64,000 nt of DNA from a virus (taxonomy: Duplodnaviria; Caudoviricetes), in the IMG/VR virus record IMGVR_UViG_3300011448_000001, positions 23,099 through 87,098 of that record; one strand, 5' to 3'. Below, one piece after another: positions 11,983 to 40,637 of the stretch (positions within the stretch are counted from its first letter, which is position 1; each line of letters starts with the position of its first letter). The position numbers and the translations under genes are program-made. A model generated the notes under the pieces. It was not told the DNA's origin. It searched no databases and was given only the letters and a program-made list of their open reading frames with translations.

Positions 11983-12004
11983 GAGGGCTCCGTTTGGAGT
12001 CCTC
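11983..12004 (-). terminator. Intrinsic terminator after dUTPase
   Basis: GAGGGCTCC-GTTT-GGAGTCCTC hairpin followed by a T-run on the minus strand. Confidence 0.65.
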
Positions 12005-12014
12005 AAAATATTTA

Positions 12015-12533
12015 TTAATCTTTTATAATATTTTCTGAATCGTTAGAAGTAGCATCGATTACTTCGTCTGATTTATCGGTTATTTCTACTTTAGCAGTAT
12101 CTGTAGATCCGTAACCACCTTCACCACGATCTGATTCTGAGAGTTCTGTACACTCAATAATATCAATATCTGTAATACAAGGTGTAATTACTAATTGTGC
12201 AAATTTATCACCTGGTTTATATATTGCAGGAACTACATCTGTAGTAGATCTCATCTTAAACATAATTTCACCACGATAACCACAATCAATTACGCCAACT
12301 GCATTAGTAGTTGATAAAGACTTCTTTGATATACTAGAACGAGGAAACAGTAATCCAACATAACCTTCTGGTATTTCTACAGCAAGATCGGTGTGATATA
12401 CTAAAATTACTTGACCACATTCGTTAAGTTCGGTTGTTACTTCTGTACAAACAAGATCAAGTCCTGCGTCTGTCTTATGAGCGCGTGTAGGCGTTACAGC
12501 CAATTCCTTAAGTTTCTTAAATTTTAATTCCAT
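12015..12533 (-). CDS. dut: Trimeric dUTPase
   Basis: Motifs AGLDL, PRSS, VIDCGYRGEI, FAQLV, RGEGGYGST. Confidence 0.95.
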   Translation of the reverse strand: MELKFKKLKELAVTPTRAHKTDAGLDLVCTEVTTELNECGQVILVYHTDLAVEIPEGYVGLLFPRSSISKKSLSTTNAVGVIDCGYRGEIMFKMRSTTDVVPAIYKPGDKFAQLVITPCITDIDIIECTELSESDRGEGGYGSTDTAKVEITDKSDEVIDATSNDSENIIKD

Positions 12534-12623
12534 GTTTTAATTTTATCAAAAAAGAAATATTGTTTATATTAAATTACTTTTTAGTAACGAACCCTTAGTG
12601 TTTTTCGTCTAAGGGGAAATAAT

Positions 12624-12670
12624 GTAGACTTTCTGGAATCGAACCAGATAAACCACCGCTGGAAGTCTTA
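12624..12670 (-). ncRNA. Anticodon-less mini-tRNA-like element A
   Basis: AGACTT/AAGTCT acceptor-like stem, 14-nt linker CCAGCGGTGGTTTA, T-arm TCTGG-TTCGATT-CCAGA. Confidence 0.55.
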
Positions 12671-12763
12671 CCTGTGTTATGTACAATTAATTTAATAAGA
12701 GTTTTTGATAAACAAAATCAAGTTATAATTTTTATGAGAAAAAAATAAATTTTTTAAAGGTCG

Positions 12764-12835
12764 TACCCCCAGTACGATTCGAACGCACACTAAAGGGGTT
12801 AGAGCCCTCTGTGCTAACCATTACACCATGGGGGA
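12764..12835 (-). tRNA. Amber suppressor tRNA (anticodon CUA), presumed Gln
   Basis: Full cloverleaf: acceptor CCCCCA/TGGGGG, D-arm GTGT/GCAC, anticodon arm GAGGG-CTCTAAC-CCCTT (CTA at 12800-12802), T-arm GTGCG-TTCGAAT-CGTAC. CCA is not encoded. Confidence 0.92.
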
Positions 12836-12836
12836 G

Positions 12837-12889
12837 TATGTTGTGGAGGAGTCGAACCTCCTGTTTGATCAAAGACCGTCATACAACAT
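12837..12889 (-). ncRNA. Anticodon-less mini-tRNA-like element B
   Basis: Perfect 7-bp acceptor-like stem ATGTTGT/ACAACAT, 21-nt linker, T-arm GGAGG-TTCGACT-CCTCC; ends 1 nt before the suppressor tRNA. Confidence 0.65.
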
Positions 12890-12902
12890 TGAACTGTATT
12901 AA

Positions 12903-13250
12903 TTACTTCTTACGAGTAATCCAATTCCAAAATCTCTTATACCAAGGAAGCTTGATTTCTTTTTTCTCTGTCACACTATTGATCAGATCCTTAGCAGAGT
13001 TACTTAATTTATCAACAATTTCACAAAAATCATCAATTAACGTACTACATTCCTCAATTGCATATCCTGCAATCTCTGCACACATTGCTTCAAATTCATC
13101 CTGTGTCATAATACCAGGATCAATAAGATGTTTCTTAATCTTAGAAAATGCAAGAATTGTATATACGTCCTGAGGATTAGAAACCATACTTAAATCAATA
13201 GTATATGTTGACTTCTTATTTATTTTCTTTGTTGTATTTTTCTTATTCAT
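12903..13250 (-). CDS. Hypothetical protein
   Basis: Intact 115-aa ORF in the late operon; basic C-terminus KLPWYKRFWNWITRKK. Confidence 0.7.
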   Translation of the reverse strand: MNKKNTTKKINKKSTYTIDLSMVSNPQDVYTILAFSKIKKHLIDPGIMTQDEFEAMCAEIAGYAIEECSTLIDDFCEIVDKLSNSAKDLINSVTEKKEIKLPWYKRFWNWITRKK

Positions 13251-13274
13251 TTTTATATATTTTAAAAGATTATA

Positions 13275-13694
13275 TTAATTATCATAAGAAGGAGTTGCTA
13301 TTGAGGATTCGCAAGAATCCATACCAATACTGTTAGAAAATCCATCAAGAACAGCATCTTTTTGTTCATTACCACTATTAATATTAGCTTTTTTTGCTGC
13401 CTCAAGAGCACGTTTCTGTACTTCTTCATTATATGCTTCAAGATTCTCTTTCCATTCTGGACATGTTACAACAACGACATCGTGTGAAAATGCTTTTTCA
13501 TAGAATGTAATAACAAGATCTCCAGCTTTACATATATATTCGTGTTGATCATCACCCATTCCAGTAATTATTTTAGTGTCTGTATCAAGTAACAATATTG
13601 ATCTAATGGCTTCTCTCTGAGAAATCGTTGGAACCACTTTTCCGTTCTCATCAATATTTACACATCCACAATTATTAATGTATAATGTATTCAT
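13275..13694 (-). CDS. Hypothetical protein
   Basis: Intact 139-aa ORF, translationally coupled to the upstream gene. Confidence 0.7.
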   Translation of the reverse strand: MNTLYINNCGCVNIDENGKVVPTISQREAIRSILLLDTDTKIITGMGDDQHEYICKAGDLVITFYEKAFSHDVVVVTCPEWKENLEAYNEEVQKRALEAAKKANINSGNEQKDAVLDGFSNSIGMDSCESSIATPSYDN

Positions 13695-20973: not shown

Positions 20974-21008
20974 ATTATAAGGGGGAGCTTGGACTCTCCC
21001 CCTTAAAA

Positions 21009-21077
21009 ACTCAGCCAAGAAGAGTATAAAATAGTCACTGATGAGACTTGGACGAAACACAAATGTGTCTGACGTGA
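21009..21077 (+). ncRNA. Hammerhead-like ribozyme (type I variant)
   Basis: GTCA-CTGATGA-G..C-GAAA-CAC(AAAT)GTG-TC-TGAC: intact core, stems I and III, GUC cleavage triplet; stem II reduced to 1 bp. Confidence 0.6.
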
Positions 21078-25429: not shown

Positions 25430-25730
25430 AAAGGATCGCTTGAGTGTGATGTAAATATGCAAGACGAGGGTTCGACTCCCTCTAGCTCCACAAAACCAAT
25501 CAAAAAGGCAAGAATCAAAACTCTAAAAATAGGCACCTACTAGGAGACAGCCCACTTGGTGTAGAGAAGCACATTTTGATTGGTTCTATATAAGGGGCTA
25601 TATGGCATTTGATTGCATAGGAGATAAACACGAGATCAACATAAAAACAAACGACAATAGTAATATTGTTGACTATACTTGCGTAGCGTAAGTAAATGTC
25701 TGAGGTAGCTGTACCAATAACCGAAAACAG
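25430..25730 (+). ncRNA. ssrA: Circularly permuted (two-piece) tmRNA; outer boundaries approximate
   Basis: The 3' module TATGCAA-GAC-GAGGG-TTCGACT-CCCTC-TAGCTCC-A (25456-90) precedes the 5' module GGGGCTA-TATGGCATTTGA-TTGCATA (25594-619). G3-U70 pair. Tag ORF 25647-25691. Confidence 0.85.
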
Positions 25731-25733
25731 CAA

Positions 25734-25787
25734 GGAGAGATTGGATAAGGTAACACTTAAAGAGTTCGAATCTCTTTCTCTCCTCCG
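25734..25787 (+). ncRNA. Anticodon-less mini-tRNA-like element C
   Basis: GGAGAGA/TCTCTCC 7-bp acceptor-like stem, 19-nt linker, AAGAG-TTCGAAT-CTCTT T-arm, 3' TCCG. Confidence 0.65.
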
Positions 25788-32719: not shown

Positions 32720-33295
32720 ATGGCAAATCGTCTGACACAAGCAGACGCATTGATTGTAAGATATTTGCTTGAAGACCCACTAATAAGGAGTGTTCTTGTA
32801 GATAACTCTAAAAAAGAAGTATTCAAACGCATCGATATAAATACAGACGGTTCAATCACGCTAGGGAAGACCTCCATTAAGTGGTGGAATCGACTGCTTA
32901 ACGATGAAAAGAATATTTCTTTCAATGAGTTTGCTTTAAAAGTCACCGATAAAATATCGGGACAGAAAAACAACACAAATGAGAAATTACTTAATGGGTT
33001 ACTTGAGGTTATTGCCAAAAAAGGTATAAAAAATCAGGATTATTCATATGTAATCGATCAGTTGTTAATAGCAGCAAAGTTCGGAATGGACGGTCCGCTT
33101 AAATGTAAATGTATGGATCTTAATAATAATGACAGAGACCCTGTAGAAAATAATAAAGGTCCACGCATTCGCAAAGCAAACTTACAAGGTCGTTCTGAAC
33201 GAATTCCCTTGAAATTTAGTCTCAATCCTTTTGGTGAGACAATAGATATAAATGCTCGATTAGTTATTGATGAAGATGGCTATGTAGAGCAATAG
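32720..33295 (+). CDS. Hypothetical protein (ends in TAG)
   Basis: 191-aa ORF; TAG-TAC-GCA-GCA-TAA. Confidence 0.75.
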   Translation: MANRLTQADALIVRYLLEDPLIRSVLVDNSKKEVFKRIDINTDGSITLGKTSIKWWNRLLNDEKNISFNEFALKVTDKISGQKNNTNEKLLNGLLEVIAKKGIKNQDYSYVIDQLLIAAKFGMDGPLKCKCMDLNNNDRDPVENNKGPRIRKANLQGRSERIPLKFSLNPFGETIDINARLVIDEDGYVEQ

Positions 33296-33361: not shown

Positions 33362-33417
33362 ACCTCCTAATGGCAAACAATGACCTTGTTTGGTAGGTTC
33401 GATTCCTACAGGAGGAA
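33362..33417 (+). ncRNA. Mini-tRNA-like element D
   Basis: CCTCCT/AGGAGG acceptor-like stem, AATGG, hairpin CAAACAA-TGACC-TTGTTTG, T-arm GTAGG-TTCGATT-CCTAC. Confidence 0.6.
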
Positions 33418-33471: not shown

Positions 33472-34023
33472 ATGAATAAGAATAAGACTACATTTAAATC
33501 AAACGACATTATTAATACTCGTGATAACATTAGTAAGAAGATTTCTTCTTATTGGAAGACAATTGAGGCTACAAACCTTATGTCTAATAAAGCAGTATCT
33601 TCAGGTATGCGTAAGTATGATCTGAAGGAGTTATATAACCAGATTACGCAGCTTGCTATTCATCGAGTAAAGTCAAAGCTCTTGCTTAATGCTATTAATA
33701 GCGGAATTAAGTCATTTACATTTAACGGTATTGAGAAGACTCATTACTATAAAATTTATATGCTTAATGAACTTCAGGAGCAGAAAGTACACATGATGAT
33801 CATTCAGTCTAAGCATACTATCAACCCTTCTGCAAAGGCAAAGGCCGGAAAGAAGGGAACTGGAAAGAACGAGATATTTAGTCATGCAAAGGCTGGTTCT
33901 ATAATCAACAATCTATCTATTAAAATAGAGGCGTTAAAAGCAGATATTAAGAAGTTTAACGATGATGCTACAATTGACATTGACACAACAAATGACAATT
34001 TTAAGCTTGAAATTTCAGCATAA
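33472..34023 (+). CDS. Hypothetical protein
   Basis: 183-aa ORF. Confidence 0.8.
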   Translation: MNKNKTTFKSNDIINTRDNISKKISSYWKTIEATNLMSNKAVSSGMRKYDLKELYNQITQLAIHRVKSKLLLNAINSGIKSFTFNGIEKTHYYKIYMLNELQEQKVHMMIIQSKHTINPSAKAKAGKKGTGKNEIFSHAKAGSIINNLSIKIEALKADIKKFNDDATIDIDTTNDNFKLEISA

Positions 34024-34165
34024 AACTTCTATGGCACGTATGGTTACGGTATATTATTATATACTTTTCGATCGTTACGAAAGTGTCAACCAATAGAATT
34101 CATTTCCATCCAACGAGAGAATAATGAATCAATAAATTTTGTTTAACTTTTAAAACATAATCAAT

Positions 34166-35041
34166 ATGAAGATAATAATCATAAATAGAAGAAAGAATCA
34201 TAGACTTTACAAGATTAATCCTGTAAATAGAGTATTGAAACTTAGCAAAGGTCTTAGACACGCTATTAAGAAAAATGGTGAGAAGGTGTCAATTCCAACC
34301 GAAATTACATATTATAGTGTGATTAAGAAAGCTAAAAATTCTACTATTAAAGAAATCTATAATAACTGGGTTAAAGAAAAGAGCGGTTCACACCCTCAGC
34401 CGAAATCATACTATTTTAATAATGAGGAATATAAACTTGTTAATAAAAAAACAGTTAAGTCAAGCGTAAAAGTTAACAAGAAGATGCAATATCTTCAGAA
34501 ACTTGCTTGGTATAAGATGGAAAAGTGGGATAAGAATAATCCTACACCGATACCACCAGAGAGTATGAAACCTGCTGACAAGATAGCGCTTGTAGAACAT
34601 CACAAGAAGTTACGTCGCGACACATATTCAAGGATTTGTACAAATCTGCTAATTATATATAATAAAAAGCAGGCAAAAACATATTATCAGGTATCAATAA
34701 CAAAACAGGATCCGTCTTATCCATTTACAAAAATAGTAACAGTTTATTCTAAGAACCACGAGTCGTTGAATAAAGCTGAAACCGATTTTGTAAACAAAAC
34801 GTTAAATTATATGACAAACAAAGATAAATCTTACGATAATGACTATCGTAGAACAGATTTATATAAGATTTCGGTACAAAACGGAGTTATAACAAAACAA
34901 TTGTTAGATTTCCACACAACAAGACGACCTTCTAGATTAATGTACGAACATCAATATAAGAACTTCGTAAAGAACCTAAAGGTTCATATTGCTGGAAATA
35001 TAACAGTACCGTTTAAGTTTGAATATGCAAACGCAGCATAA
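34166..35041 (+). CDS. Lys-rich hypothetical protein
   Basis: 291-aa ORF. Confidence 0.75.
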   Translation: MKIIIINRRKNHRLYKINPVNRVLKLSKGLRHAIKKNGEKVSIPTEITYYSVIKKAKNSTIKEIYNNWVKEKSGSHPQPKSYYFNNEEYKLVNKKTVKSSVKVNKKMQYLQKLAWYKMEKWDKNNPTPIPPESMKPADKIALVEHHKKLRRDTYSRICTNLLIIYNKKQAKTYYQVSITKQDPSYPFTKIVTVYSKNHESLNKAETDFVNKTLNYMTNKDKSYDNDYRRTDLYKISVQNGVITKQLLDFHTTRRPSRLMYEHQYKNFVKNLKVHIAGNITVPFKFEYANAA

Positions 35042-35118
35042 ATTCAAACAGCTTCAATAGTTTAACATAAAACGCTTGTATAACAAGAAATATCAATTTA
35101 AATTTGATTTGAAGCACT

Positions 35119-37020
35119 ATGAAACTCAAGAATAAAAATCTACATGTATATGATGTAGAAATTTTCCCAAATTGTTTTCACATAACTTCAAAAGATACAG
35201 AAAACAATAAAATATACAAATTTGAGGTATCTTGTAGAAAATTTGAATTAGACAAAATATGTGACTATTTTAAAAGTGACGCCATTTTTGTAGGATATAA
35301 TAATCATCATTATGATGATTTATTTATAAATTACATAATGGAATATCGAGATAGTATGATTCATCTAAGCTATTGGGATATTTGTAAGTCCTTATTTAAT
35401 ATGTCACAGCTCATTATTAAAGAAAACGATGAGCCAAGTTACCTATTAAAACACTTCAAATATGCTCATTATTTTAAATCTATTGATTTACTTTCAATGT
35501 TAGCAAGTAAGAAATTACGTGTAGGATTGAAAGAAATGCAGCTTACAATGCATTATCAGAATGTATACGAATATGAAGGAGACTTTACATCGTATATTAA
35601 TGAAAATGATATAGATACTATGATTGAGTATAACATAAACGATGTACTTTCAACAGAGGAACTCCTCAACCGCTGTAAAAAGGATTTGGAAGTACGCGAA
35701 TGGATAGAGGAAGAATATGGTATTAATGCCTATTCAATGGATGGTGTAAAAATTGGAGAAACATTACTTGAAACTTTCTACATAAAAGAAACAAAAATTC
35801 CTAAGAAAGTATTAGAGTCAATGCGTTCTCCAATGGATATGATTCCTTTAAAGGATGTAATATTACCATTCATAAAATTTGAGAACCCAAAACTCAAAGA
35901 AATTTTAGAAGATATGAAATCGCGTGTTGTATCTTCTAAAGAAAGAAAAAGCTATGAGAAGCAGTTTGTGCTCTCAAATGTGGAATATTCGGTAGGTATA
36001 GGTGGAATCCATAGTCTACACAAACCGGAGATTTTCAGACCTAAAAATGATGAAATAATTGGGCATGCAGACGTAACAAGTATGTATCCTAGTTTATTAA
36101 TAAAACATCATTTACAACCAAAACATTTAGGTGAAAAATTTCGCAAGATGTATGAAAATATATACAACCAACGTGTTGATGCGAAACATAACGGGCAGAA
36201 GTTTAAAAATGAAACGTTAAAACTGACATTAAACTCTGTAACAGGTAAAATGCAACAAGAAGTAAGCTGGATGTACGACCCATTCAATGTCTTTCGTATT
36301 CGTATTAACGGTCAATTGATATTGTTGATGTTAGTTGAACGCCTATTAAATATTGACTGTAAGATAGTACAAGTCAATACTGATGGTGTAATGTACATTT
36401 GTAAAAAGTCAAATCAGAATGCAGTCCAAGATGCTATTCATGATGTCGAAAACATCACACAGCTTAATTTTGAAGTAGGATGTTATGAAGCGTTTTTTCA
36501 GTACGCAGGAAACGATTATTTTGGGATACTCGAAGGTTATGGACTATCACATGACCCAAAACTGATAGAAAAGAAAGGAATGTTTATAGATGAAACTAAA
36601 TTAGGTAAAGGGTTAGCTCCGACTATTATACCTAAAGCAGTAATGAATTATTTCATTAACAACATTCCTGTAGAACAGACAATAACTACTTGCACTGATA
36701 TACGTGAATTCTTTATAGGACAACGTGTATCAAAGGATTTTAAAGTTGAATACAAAGACAAACGTATACAACGAATAAATAGATTCTATGCAAGTACTAA
36801 TGGAGCATATCTATATAAATATAAAGAAAACAATGACGGTACAAGACAGTATTTTAATATGCTGACTAAATCTGGTGTAACAATTATGAATAAGTTAGAT
36901 AACTTAGACATAAAAAATAAAAATATAAATTACCGGTATTATATATCGGAGGCAAATAAAATTATAACAGAATTACGTACCGTTCAACTTGATCTATTTA
37001 ATCAATTCGGTAACCTTTGA
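35119..37020 (+). CDS. polB: Family B DNA polymerase with 3'-5' exonuclease
   Basis: Exo YDVEIF, GYNNHHYD, YNINDV; pol ADVTSMYPS, KLTLNSVTGK, VNTDG. Confidence 0.93.
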   Translation: MKLKNKNLHVYDVEIFPNCFHITSKDTENNKIYKFEVSCRKFELDKICDYFKSDAIFVGYNNHHYDDLFINYIMEYRDSMIHLSYWDICKSLFNMSQLIIKENDEPSYLLKHFKYAHYFKSIDLLSMLASKKLRVGLKEMQLTMHYQNVYEYEGDFTSYINENDIDTMIEYNINDVLSTEELLNRCKKDLEVREWIEEEYGINAYSMDGVKIGETLLETFYIKETKIPKKVLESMRSPMDMIPLKDVILPFIKFENPKLKEILEDMKSRVVSSKERKSYEKQFVLSNVEYSVGIGGIHSLHKPEIFRPKNDEIIGHADVTSMYPSLLIKHHLQPKHLGEKFRKMYENIYNQRVDAKHNGQKFKNETLKLTLNSVTGKMQQEVSWMYDPFNVFRIRINGQLILLMLVERLLNIDCKIVQVNTDGVMYICKKSNQNAVQDAIHDVENITQLNFEVGCYEAFFQYAGNDYFGILEGYGLSHDPKLIEKKGMFIDETKLGKGLAPTIIPKAVMNYFINNIPVEQTITTCTDIREFFIGQRVSKDFKVEYKDKRIQRINRFYASTNGAYLYKYKENNDGTRQYFNMLTKSGVTIMNKLDNLDIKNKNINYRYYISEANKIITELRTVQLDLFNQFGNL

Positions 37021-40575: not shown

Positions 40576-40637
40576 CAAAAAGGTAATGGTGGAACGGCTG
40601 TTCCAACAGCCCCGGGGGAGATTATTCTCCCCCTTAT

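What the first reader, a model, noticed from the sequence alone, without database searches (positions are those of the whole stretch)
12624..12889. Family of anticodon-less mini-tRNAs; two bracket the amber suppressor tRNA
Seen: elements A (12624-70) and B (12837-89) each have a 6-7 bp acceptor-like stem stacked on a canonical 5-bp T-stem with a TTCGANT loop. A 14-21 nt linker with a D-loop-like GG replaces the D-stem and anticodon arm. B ends 1 nt before position 1 of the suppressor tRNA; A lies about 95 nt downstream of it. Two more copies (C, D) occur elsewhere with different sequences but the same architecture, which argues for structural selection rather than decay of one tRNA. Established: acceptor plus T-arm is the minimal RNase P/RNase Z substrate and resembles the tmRNA tRNA-like domain. 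Inference: these may be processing punctuation that releases functional RNAs (here timing the suppressor), decoys for tRNA-targeting defences, or mimics for SmpB, RelA or synthetases. This is my best candidate for an undescribed system.
Basis: partly seen in the sequence, partly recalled or inferred. Interest (0 to 1): 0.85.

Follow-up and report, generated by a model that had tools for sequence, protein, structure and literature searches.

The report
Anticodon-less mini-tRNAs punctuating a crAss-like phage
This gut crAss-like phage carries small RNA folds that keep only the top half of a tRNA. They sit between genes, directly before its stop-codon-reading tRNA and just after its tmRNA, and most likely serve as cutting marks for the host's tRNA-trimming enzymes, though no cutting has been shown.

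Summary
Elements A (12626-12668, -) and B (12838-12889, -) fold as an acceptor stem stacked on a perfect T-arm with a canonical T-loop and no anticodon arm. So do C (25734-25783, +) and D (33363-33415, +). Four such folds occur against 0.29 expected from shuffles. I add two degenerate cloverleaf relatives, E (35051-35115) and F (34032-34088). All six are intergenic and point the same way as their neighbouring genes.

Related Suoliviridae phages support selection on structure. The slot just 5' of the suppressor tRNA holds comparable elements whose stems differ completely but still pair: 8 of 12 pairs are compensatory in one subclass. The slots of B and D hold a full tRNA in some relatives and a mini-tRNA in others. 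The slot after the permuted tmRNA (C) holds a graded series of 59-80 nt tRNA-like elements, down to the 50-nt C.

So these are tRNA-derived, but only their top half is maintained. The best reading is host RNase P/Z punctuation, like plant-mitochondrial t-elements. Cleavage itself is untested, and no RNA data were available. A has no homologue and could be a recent remnant.

No paper describing this was found. This scan already noted the same kind of element in another crAss-like genome (e1-5914885). Verdict: a new variant of a known kind.

The parts
12838..12889 (-). Mini-tRNA B: 7-bp acceptor stem, 21-nt linker with a 4-bp hairpin, 5-bp T-stem with loop TTCGACT. It is followed by the tail AC (12837-12836) and then position 1 of the suppressor tRNA. 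It starts 13 nt after the stop codon of ORF 12903-13250.
   Evidence: Positional homologues in L013, L086, L089/L092, L170, L191, L210, L186, L200, L084, L085/L188, L215 and L095.
12763..12835 (-). Amber suppressor tRNA (anticodon CTA) of tRNA-Gln type, with a U1-U72 mismatch, discriminator A and no encoded CCA.
   Evidence: ARAGORN; Rfam tRNA model 56.8 bits.
12626..12668 (-). Mini-tRNA A: 6-bp acceptor stem, 14-nt linker, 5-bp T-stem with loop TTCGATT, A at position -1, 3' tail ACAT. It lies about 93 nt after the suppressor tRNA and about 90 nt before the dUTPase start codon.
   Evidence: No homologue found.
25734..25783 (+). Mini-tRNA C: 7-bp acceptor stem, 19-nt linker with a 4-bp hairpin, 5-bp T-stem with loop TTCGAAT. 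It lies 42 nt after the tmRNA tag stop codon and 38 nt before ORF 25822.
   Evidence: The same slot is occupied by tRNA-like elements of 59-80 nt in cr60_1, cr7_1, cr10_1 and Bohxovirus.
25434..25691 (+). Circularly permuted (two-piece) tmRNA gene. It has a T-arm at 25466-25482, a G3:U70 acceptor pair and the tag DNSNIVDYTCVA*.
   Evidence: Rfam tmRNA_permuted 37.9 bits, E 6.7e-6, below the gathering score of 47. ARAGORN tmRNA*. Homologous tags occur in relatives whose GenBank records annotate SsrA.
33363..33415 (+). Mini-tRNA D: 6-bp acceptor stem, 5-nt spacer, a 7-bp hairpin with a 5-nt loop, 5-bp T-stem with loop TTCGATT. It lies between ORF 32720-33295 and ORF 33472-34023.
   Evidence: (z-score -3.1). 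In the same slot Dulem virus 42 has tRNA-Thr(TGT) and Bohxovirus has a mini-tRNA.
34032..34088 (+). Element F: a compact 57-nt cloverleaf with a 4-nt 'anticodon' loop, the variant T-loop ATCGTTA and the 3' tail ACCA. It starts 8 nt after the stop codon of ORF 33472-34023.
   Evidence: Bohxovirus has a 57-nt element in the same junction.
35051..35115 (+). Element E: a 65-nt AT-rich cloverleaf with a 3-nt 'anticodon' loop and the degenerate T-loop TTTAAAT. It starts 9 nt after the stop codon of ORF 34166-35041 and ends 3 nt before the ATG of ORF 35119-37020.
   Evidence: Bohxovirus has two tRNA-Ser genes at the syntenic junction.

Best explanation
A-D, together with E and F, are tRNA-derived elements that have lost a usable anticodon arm. 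Selection has kept the part of a tRNA that processing enzymes recognise: an 11-12 bp acceptor/T-stem stack, a T-loop, a discriminator A and a following C.

They lie in the spacers of polycistronic phage transcripts. I infer that they act there as cis signals for host tRNA-end enzymes. RNase P would cut at their 5' edge. RNase Z or exonucleases, followed by the CCA-adding enzyme, would act at their 3' edge. This would separate neighbouring cistrons and release adjacent functional RNAs.

B would detach the suppressor tRNA precursor from the upstream mRNA. RNase P cleavage at tRNA position +1 would leave B with an A-C 3' end. C would define the 3' end of the tmRNA coding piece. D, E and F would separate mRNAs.

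Shown here: the folds, their enrichment, their intergenic co-oriented placement, compensatory evolution in homologous slots, and exchange with full tRNAs. Inferred: transcription through the elements, cleavage by RNase P/Z, and any effect on the timing of suppressor maturation.
For: 1. Enrichment: 4 elements against 0.29 expected. All six lie in non-coding spacers of a roughly 84% coding window and are co-oriented with both neighbours.

2. Pairing: 221 of 223 stem positions pair in 19 elements from the window and relatives. The stack is 11-12 bp, the length RNase P and RNase Z measure on tRNA, which is established knowledge from minihelix substrates.

3. B slot: 9 of 89 distinct tRNA leaders have an acceptor stem plus a 7-nt-loop arm ending 3 nt or less before the tRNA, against 1.2 in shuffles. 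In the subclass with loop AGCGTTA, 100% of cells pair and 8 of 12 pairs show changes on both sides in only 4 sequences; slid controls give 0-1. L013 has a mini-tRNA right after the stop codon of the homologous ORF, with entirely different but paired stems and a shared linker motif.

4. C slot: five phages with the homologous permuted tmRNA all have a tRNA-like element after the tag. Sizes run from an 80-nt near-tRNA to the 50-nt C. Acceptor stem and T-arm are always intact while the middle varies. Bohxovirus shares six of seven acceptor pairs with C, offset by one position, but has a fully different paired T-stem.

5. D slot: a full tRNA-Thr in Dulem virus 42, a mini-tRNA in Bohxovirus, and nothing in four others. 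A full tRNA-Gly sits 6 nt before the suppressor in L014. Whatever works in these slots is something a tRNA also provides.

6. Ends: the position -1 base is A in 6 of 6 window elements, and the 3' tail is A-C in most. This is the same trailer as the phage's real tRNAs and its tmRNA.

7. Context: there is no terminator between the upstream ORF, B, the tRNA, A and the dUTPase gene. The phage record has no CCA-adding enzyme or RNA ligase of its own, which points to host enzymes.

8. Precedent: t-elements carrying the same T-arm motif direct RNase P/Z cleavage of mitochondrial mRNAs (PMC1920247).
Against: No RNA evidence of any kind exists. No RNA run holds this phage, so neither transcription through the elements nor a single cleavage is shown.

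A has no homologue and could be a recent deletion remnant.

E has a degenerate T-loop, as expected from decay.

In the L086 subgroup the acceptor helix abuts tRNA position 1 with at most two free bases. This could hinder RNase P as easily as help it.

Other recoded phages place pseudoknots or plain hairpins in the same leader position. The common requirement there may therefore be 'a stable structure' and not 'a tRNA-like substrate'.

Homology of the minis within a slot is positional. Independent replacement cannot be excluded.
Confidence: 0.5

Rival explanations
1. They are neutral wreckage. Phage tRNA genes come and go in these spacers, and A-F are dead tRNA genes with internal deletions and no function of their own.
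For: Full tRNAs occupy the B, D and E slots in some relatives. Middle regions vary freely. E has a decayed T-loop. A has no homologue. Four relatives have nothing in the D slot.
Against: Neutral decay should hit stems as often as the middle, yet 221 of 223 stem positions pair. Stems in the same slot differ by compensatory double changes. The position -1 A and the A-C tail are kept. Enrichment is confined to co-oriented intergenic sites.
Confidence: 0.15
2. They are structural caps or leader modules, not cleavage signals. A tRNA-like fold retained at the 3' end of the upstream RNA, or at the 5' side of the suppressor precursor, would protect it from exonucleases. Alternatively it would control folding and the rate of RNase P maturation of the suppressor, and so the timing of the code switch.
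For: B, E, F and the L013 element start 8-13 nt after an upstream stop codon. Other phages put pseudoknots or hairpins 4-6 nt before the suppressor tRNA, and this phage puts a GC hairpin 4 nt before its tRNA-Glu. In the L086 group the helix abuts tRNA position 1.
Against: A plain hairpin would do for protection. It does not explain retention of a canonical T-loop, a 12-bp stack and a tRNA-type trailer, nor replacement by full tRNAs.
Confidence: 0.17
3. They are decoys or sponges for proteins that grasp the tRNA top half. Candidates are defence nucleases or nucleotidyltransferases that attack acceptor ends, the CCA-adding enzyme, EF-Tu, SmpB or a synthetase.
For: Only the general fit holds: the acceptor end and T-arm are what such proteins bind. 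Defences that attack tRNA acceptor tails exist (PMC12851939, listed). The phage has a tmRNA of its own.
Against: No element has the G3:U70 pair or a helix-2 link needed for a tmRNA-like domain. The fixed positions at cistron junctions and next to the tRNA and tmRNA are not needed for a decoy. There is only one copy per slot and no sign of high-copy expression.
Confidence: 0.08

Closest known systems
t-elements of plant mitochondria (Hanic-Joyce 1990; Forner et al. 2007, PMC1920247)
   Same: Both are tRNA-like folds with an acceptor stem, a T-arm carrying the conserved T-loop motif and a non-canonical rest. Both lie next to coding regions in long transcripts. t-elements have termini that coincide with mRNA ends made by RNase P and RNase Z, and they receive non-encoded C residues at the 3' end.
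   Different: These are in a phage of Bacteroidales, not an organelle. They are much smaller (43-57 nt). One class is dedicated to the 5' side of a suppressor tRNA and one to the 3' side of a tmRNA. Cleavage has not been shown here.
tRNA punctuation of animal mitochondrial transcripts, and RNase P-only separation of bacterial polycistronic tRNA operons (PMC2190699)
   Same: tRNA-shaped units between cistrons are what the processing enzymes recognise. Full tRNAs occupy the same slots in related phages.
   Different: Here the units cannot decode, because they have no anticodon loop. Only the processing-relevant half is kept.
mascRNA / MALAT1 and MEN-beta 3'-end tRNA-like structures (from my own knowledge)
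   Same: A tRNA-like fold with a poor anticodon arm sits downstream of a functional non-coding RNA. RNase P cleavage at its 5' side makes the 3' end of that RNA, which is the proposed relation of C to the tmRNA coding piece.
   Different: Those are eukaryotic nuclear RNAs, unrelated in sequence, and they retain a full cloverleaf.
tRNA-like domain of tmRNA
   Same: Both have an acceptor stem plus T-arm without an anticodon arm. The same phage encodes a real permuted tmRNA.
   Different: A-F lack the G3:U70 alanine identity pair, lack the helix that links to a coding region, and are closed by a short local linker.
Theta (minimal HDV-like) ribozymes next to phage tRNAs (Kienbeck et al. 2024, PMC10879173)
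   Same: Both are small RNA devices that mature tRNAs, often suppressor tRNAs, in recoded gut phages.
   Different: [quoted passage not shown] B is a tRNA mimic at the 5' end and has no ribozyme fold. Rfam finds no ribozyme at A or B.

Membership tests
Canonical tRNA | Cloverleaf with a D-arm and a 5-bp anticodon stem carrying a 7-nt anticodon loop | tested here: not met
   ARAGORN calls only three tRNAs and the tmRNA. Rfam's tRNA model gives no hit at A-D even at E up to 10. The linkers are 14-24 nt with 3-7 bp hairpins, and no predicted loop has the 7 nt of an anticodon loop (predicted loops 3-6 nt).
t-element-like tRNA processing signal | Acceptor stem coaxial with a T-arm that carries the conserved T-loop motif, in a non-canonical cloverleaf | tested here: met
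   All stem positions of A-F pair; the stack is 11-12 bp. The loop is TTCGANT in A-D, while E and F carry variant loops.
t-element-like tRNA processing signal | Located in transcribed spacers, in the sense orientation, next to the ends of functional RNAs | tested here: inconclusive
   All six are intergenic and co-oriented with flanking genes, and no terminator lies in the A/B region. Transcription itself could not be tested, as no RNA run was available.
t-element-like tRNA processing signal | Element borders coincide with RNA termini made by RNase P and RNase Z | not testable with these tools
   This needs RACE, small-RNA sequencing or in vitro cleavage. No RNA data exist for this phage.
t-element-like tRNA processing signal | Evolutionary maintenance of the fold, not of the sequence | tested here: met
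   B-slot subclass: 8 of 12 pairs are compensatory and 100% of cells pair. C and D slots: the T-stems differ at most positions, on both strands, yet all five pairs are kept, between the window and Bohxovirus. This was not testable for A.
tmRNA tRNA-like domain | G3:U70 pair in the acceptor stem, with the acceptor and T-arm joined to a long helix leading to a tag reading frame | tested here: not met
   None of A-F has G3:U70, and all are closed locally. The true tmRNA at 25434-25691 does have it.
HDV-like / theta ribozyme | Nested double pseudoknot with P1, P2, P3 and a catalytic C, with the cleavage site at its 5' end abutting a tRNA 3' end | tested here: not met
   No Rfam ribozyme hit at 12400-13100. 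The fold of B is a three-way junction. B lies 5' of the tRNA, not 3' (for the definition).

The most novel reading that the evidence does not exclude
Suoliviridae crAss-like phages run a lineage-wide RNA-processing grammar built from anticodon-less tRNA top halves. Host RNase P/Z cut the phage's long transcripts at these marks. A dedicated leader class, with either a canonical or a swapped-pair T-loop, abuts the amber suppressor tRNA. This leader sets when and how efficiently the suppressor matures, and so gates the switch to the TAG-as-Gln late-gene code. A second class forms the 3' end of the phage's two-piece tmRNA.
Probability: 0.2. Interest if true: 0.75.

Novelty: new variant of a known kind. 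Interest (0 to 1): 0.6.

Why it matters
How crAss-like phages, the commonest viruses of the human gut, process their long transcripts is unknown. So is how they time the switch to a recoded genetic code. Suppose tRNA top halves are their punctuation marks, with one class controlling release of the suppressor tRNA. Three things would follow.

- It would carry the tRNA-punctuation and t-element principle from organelles to a bacterial virus.
- It would explain 'pseudo-tRNA' calls and odd tmRNA boundaries in phage annotations.
- It would give a simple handle for testing the code-switch mechanism: mutate the leader element.

It would also supply compact natural RNase P/Z substrates of 43-57 nt for Bacteroidales.

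Tried and rejected
**RNA evidence.** No RNA holder was listed for the stretch. Contigs of four wastewater DNA runs laid on 12400-13300 gave one identical 151-nt contig over B and otherwise only conserved fragments, so they say nothing about variation.

**Homologues of A.** Nothing like A lies upstream of dUTPase in 80 related loci. A linker-based pattern scan of metagenome contigs gave only one unrelated GC-rich coding match.

**Homologues of C through the downstream ORF.** None were found. The tmRNA itself served instead.

**Known RNA families.** Rfam at a permissive threshold gives nothing for A or B beyond weak partial matches to other families, including a T-arm-sized tmRNA hit on B.

**The AATACAG motif.** I considered the AATACAG just upstream of B as a promoter, or as the start of a ribozyme as in relatives. 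It is not enriched in this genome: 15 and 14 sites against about 9.6 expected per strand, mostly inside genes. B's flank has no HDV-like topology.

**Theta ribozyme reading.** The pseudoknots seen in relatives lack P3 and are not matched by Rfam.

**Phage-encoded enzymes.** No CCA-adding enzyme or RNA ligase was detected in the 86%-complete record.

**Promoter and terminator scan.** The sigma-70 and terminator scan of 12000-13400 gave nothing useful on the minus strand.

**Alignment and models.** MAFFT could not align the 5' strands of B with its analogues. The pair table was therefore built from coordinates in a script, and formal pair counting was done only on the well-aligned AGCGTTA subclass. 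No covariance model was built.

Full report
**What the window is.** It is 64 kb of an 87-kb crAss-like phage record. Its nearest named relatives are Suoliviridae, subfamily Oafivirinae: Bohxovirus, cr130_1 and cr273_1. It encodes an amber suppressor tRNA(CTA) at 12763-12835 on the minus strand, tRNA-Leu and tRNA-Glu. ARAGORN also calls a permuted tmRNA, and there is a RAGATH-1 hammerhead ribozyme.

**Checking the observation.** Read on the minus strand, B is exactly as described.
- It has a 7-bp acceptor stem and a 21-nt linker.
- It has a perfect 5-bp T-stem with a canonical T-loop stacked directly on the 3' acceptor strand.
- Two bases (A, C) follow, and then position 1 of the suppressor tRNA.

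A has a 6-bp acceptor stem, a 14-nt linker and a perfect T-arm, about 93 nt 3' of the tRNA. C (25734-25783) and D (33363-33415) have the same build.

A descriptor scan finds four such elements in the window. Dinucleotide shuffles give a mean of 0.29 and never more than two. The rest of the genome holds none. The minimum-free-energy fold of each is the proposed three-way structure. Each linker forms a small central hairpin, so the linkers are not simply loops. Stem sequences are unrelated (9-55% identity) while the T-loops are nearly identical. Neither ARAGORN nor Rfam's tRNA model recognises them.

A looser look found two more relatives. E (35051-35115) is a 65-nt cloverleaf whose 'anticodon' loop has 3 nt and whose T-loop is degenerate. 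F (34032-34088) is a 57-nt cloverleaf with a 4-nt 'anticodon' loop, the variant T-loop ATCGTTA and an encoded ACCA tail. All six lie in spacers of a window that is about 84% coding, and all are co-oriented with both neighbouring genes.

**The slot of B in other phages.** The ORF upstream of B ends in a conserved PWYKRFWNW motif, which let me fetch the same junction from related IMG/VR phages.
- L013 has a mini-tRNA beginning 8 nt after the homologous stop codon. Its acceptor and T-stems differ completely from B but pair, and its linker shares a motif with B.
- L086, L089/L092, L170, L191 and L210 have a canonical-T-loop mini-tRNA whose 3' strand runs up to the suppressor tRNA.
- L186, L200 and L217 have the same build with loop ATCGTTC.
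- L084, L085/L188, L215/L216 and L095/L096/L218/L219 have it with an invariant loop AGCGTTA and a conserved linker.

In that last subclass all cells pair. Eight of 12 pairs show changes on both sides among only four sequences, and controls with slid partners give 0-1. Acceptor plus T-stem add up to 12 bp whether split 7+5 or 6+6.

Across 89 distinct leaders of tRNAs of this type, nine have an acceptor stem plus a 7-nt-loop arm ending within 3 nt of the tRNA. Shuffled leaders give 1.2.

L014 has a genuine tRNA-Gly 6 nt before the suppressor. Another clade (L101, L112, L171) has a roughly 110-nt tRNA-like element there that ARAGORN does not call.

**The slot of C.** The 885-nt non-coding region before ORF 25822 contains a circularly permuted tmRNA. 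Rfam tmRNA_permuted scores 37.9 bits at E 6.7e-6, which is below the curated cut-off of 47. The acceptor stem has G3:U70. Relatives have homologous genes with related tags ending in DYT-x-(V/L)A, and GenBank annotates SsrA in cr60_1, cr7_1 and cr10_1. So the tmRNA is real and already on record.

In all four relatives where the region is intact, a tRNA-like element follows the tag:
- an 80-nt near-tRNA in cr60_1;
- a 59-nt D-armless form in cr7_1 (ARAGORN nt there);
- a 63-nt form with a cut-down anticodon arm in cr10_1;
- a 71-nt form with an unstructured middle in Bohxovirus.

Dulem virus 42 has only a fragment resembling a tRNA 5' half. The window has the 50-nt C. Acceptor stem and T-arm are intact in each of these, and the middle is what varies. 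Bohxovirus shares six of seven acceptor pairs with C, offset by one position, but has a completely different paired T-stem. ARAGORN's tmRNA calls run into these elements, which explains the odd 3' boundaries in the records.

**The slots of D, E and F.**
- D: upstream of the homologues of ORF 33472-34023, Dulem virus 42 has a full tRNA-Thr(TGT). Bohxovirus has a mini-tRNA with different paired stems. Four other phages have neither.
- F: at the next junction, Bohxovirus has a 57-nt element where the window has F.
- E: before the conserved 633-aa gene (56% identity), Bohxovirus has two tRNA-Ser genes where the window has E.

Bohxovirus as a whole carries five uncalled tRNA-like elements, all on the gene-sense strand (the fifth, the D-slot mini).

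**What this means.** Full tRNAs do occur there, so the elements are almost certainly tRNA-derived. Three observations show that the top half is maintained by selection while the decoding half is dispensable:
- near-perfect pairing, 221 of 223 positions;
- compensatory replacement of whole stems within a slot;
- a conserved A before the 5' strand (6 of 6 in the window) and a discriminator-A plus C trailer, identical to that of the phage's real tRNAs and tmRNA.

The top half is what bacterial RNase P, RNase Z and the CCA-adding enzyme recognise. That rests on established work with minihelix substrates, cited from my own knowledge. A full tRNA can fill the same slots, which says the slot needs something every tRNA has.

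I therefore favour punctuation. The marks would let host enzymes cut the polycistronic transcript, free the suppressor precursor from the upstream mRNA, and form the 3' end of the tmRNA coding piece. The closest described parallel is the plant-mitochondrial t-element, whose ends coincide with RNase P/Z-made mRNA termini and which acquires non-encoded C residues (PMC1920247).

**What remains open.**
- No RNA data exist for this phage. Transcription, cleavage and the stability of the minis are all inferred.
- A has no homologue and may be recent wreckage.
- Many other recoded phages place an H-type pseudoknot or hairpin 4-6 nt before the suppressor tRNA, and this phage puts a GC hairpin 4 nt before its tRNA-Glu. 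The leader position may therefore simply need a stable fold, for protection or to control RNase P access. That keeps the 'cap or timing' reading alive.
- Nothing supports a decoy or a SmpB or synthetase mimic.

**Novelty.** Full-text searches found no description of such elements in crAss-like or other phages. The theta-ribozyme paper deals with a different device on the other side of the tRNA. This scan has already reported the same kind of element, with the same reading, in another crAss-like genome (e1-5914885). I tested two of its points here, the position after the tmRNA and the exchange with real tRNAs, and both hold. I class the finding as a new variant of a known kind: tRNA-like processing signals, here miniaturised, in a phage, and tied to a suppressor tRNA and a tmRNA.

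Noticed in passing
window 25434-25691 (+): A circularly permuted two-piece tmRNA. It has G3:U70, the tag DNSNIVDYTCVA*, no encoded CCA and an intervening segment of about 100 nt. Rfam scores it 37.9 bits, below the gathering score of 47. Homologues with related tags occur in cr60_1, cr7_1, cr10_1, Bohxovirus and Dulem virus 42, and three GenBank records annotate SsrA.
   Followed up: partly
window 21008-21074 (+): A RAGATH-1 hammerhead ribozyme (69 bits, above the gathering score) lies about 150 nt upstream of tRNA-Leu(TAA). It is preceded by a GC-rich hairpin of the same type as the one 4 nt before tRNA-Glu (40610-40633).
   Followed up: no
L004, L007, L009, L010, L013, L086, L089, L092, L107, L119, L124, L127, L129, L134, L186/L217 (suppressor tRNA genes): Many relatives' suppressor tRNA(CTA) genes are interrupted right after CTCT in the anticodon loop by a long insertion. 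It looks like a group I intron, and in some an ORF starts inside it. ARAGORN then misses the tRNA.
   Followed up: no
L100, L102, L114-L118, L123, L126, L131, L132, L137, L166, L177, L189, L204, L207 (50 nt before the suppressor tRNA): A compact H-type pseudoknot with covarying stems ends 5-6 nt before position 1 of the suppressor tRNA in many recoded phages outside the window's clade. It holds the same leader position as B. Rfam has no match and its function is unknown.
   Followed up: partly
L084:1935-1995, L085:1826-1885, L089/L092:1845-1900, L215: After a conserved (A)ACAGCC start (AATACAGCC in three of the five) comes a pseudoknot with an extra GC hairpin. It has the strand order of an HDV-like ribozyme (P1, P2, P1', P4, P2') but no room for P3. 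In L084 and L087 an odd tRNA-like element sits just before it. It could be a new self-cleaving or processing motif.
   Followed up: partly
L086:1772-1830, L214, L217, L218/L095 (upstream of the suppressor region): A conserved motif of about 60 nt, beginning AGTCGGAGG and ending AACAAAGAGG before CCCAATACAG, recurs in several phages between the conserved ORF and the suppressor tRNA. It is probably another structured RNA.
   Followed up: no
L084, L085/L188, L215/L216, L095/L096/L218/L219, L186/L200/L217; window 34066-34082: A T-loop variant with the 54:58 pair apparently swapped (loops AGCGTTA and ATCGTTC/A) defines a second class of tRNA top-half mimic. In the AGCGTTA subclass it comes with a conserved linker (GTTTAGAC). 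Element F in the window has this type of loop.
   Followed up: partly
L222, L223, L224 (spacers upstream of homologues of ORF 33472-34023): Several hairpins with unrelated stems all present a CTGCGG (or CCGAGG) loop. This looks like repeated binding sites for one protein.
   Followed up: no
window 12610-12588 (-): A 7-bp hairpin (CCCTTAG, 10-nt loop, CTAAGGG) lies 15 nt after A and about 55 nt before the dUTPase start codon. It has no T-run, so it is not an obvious terminator.
   Followed up: no
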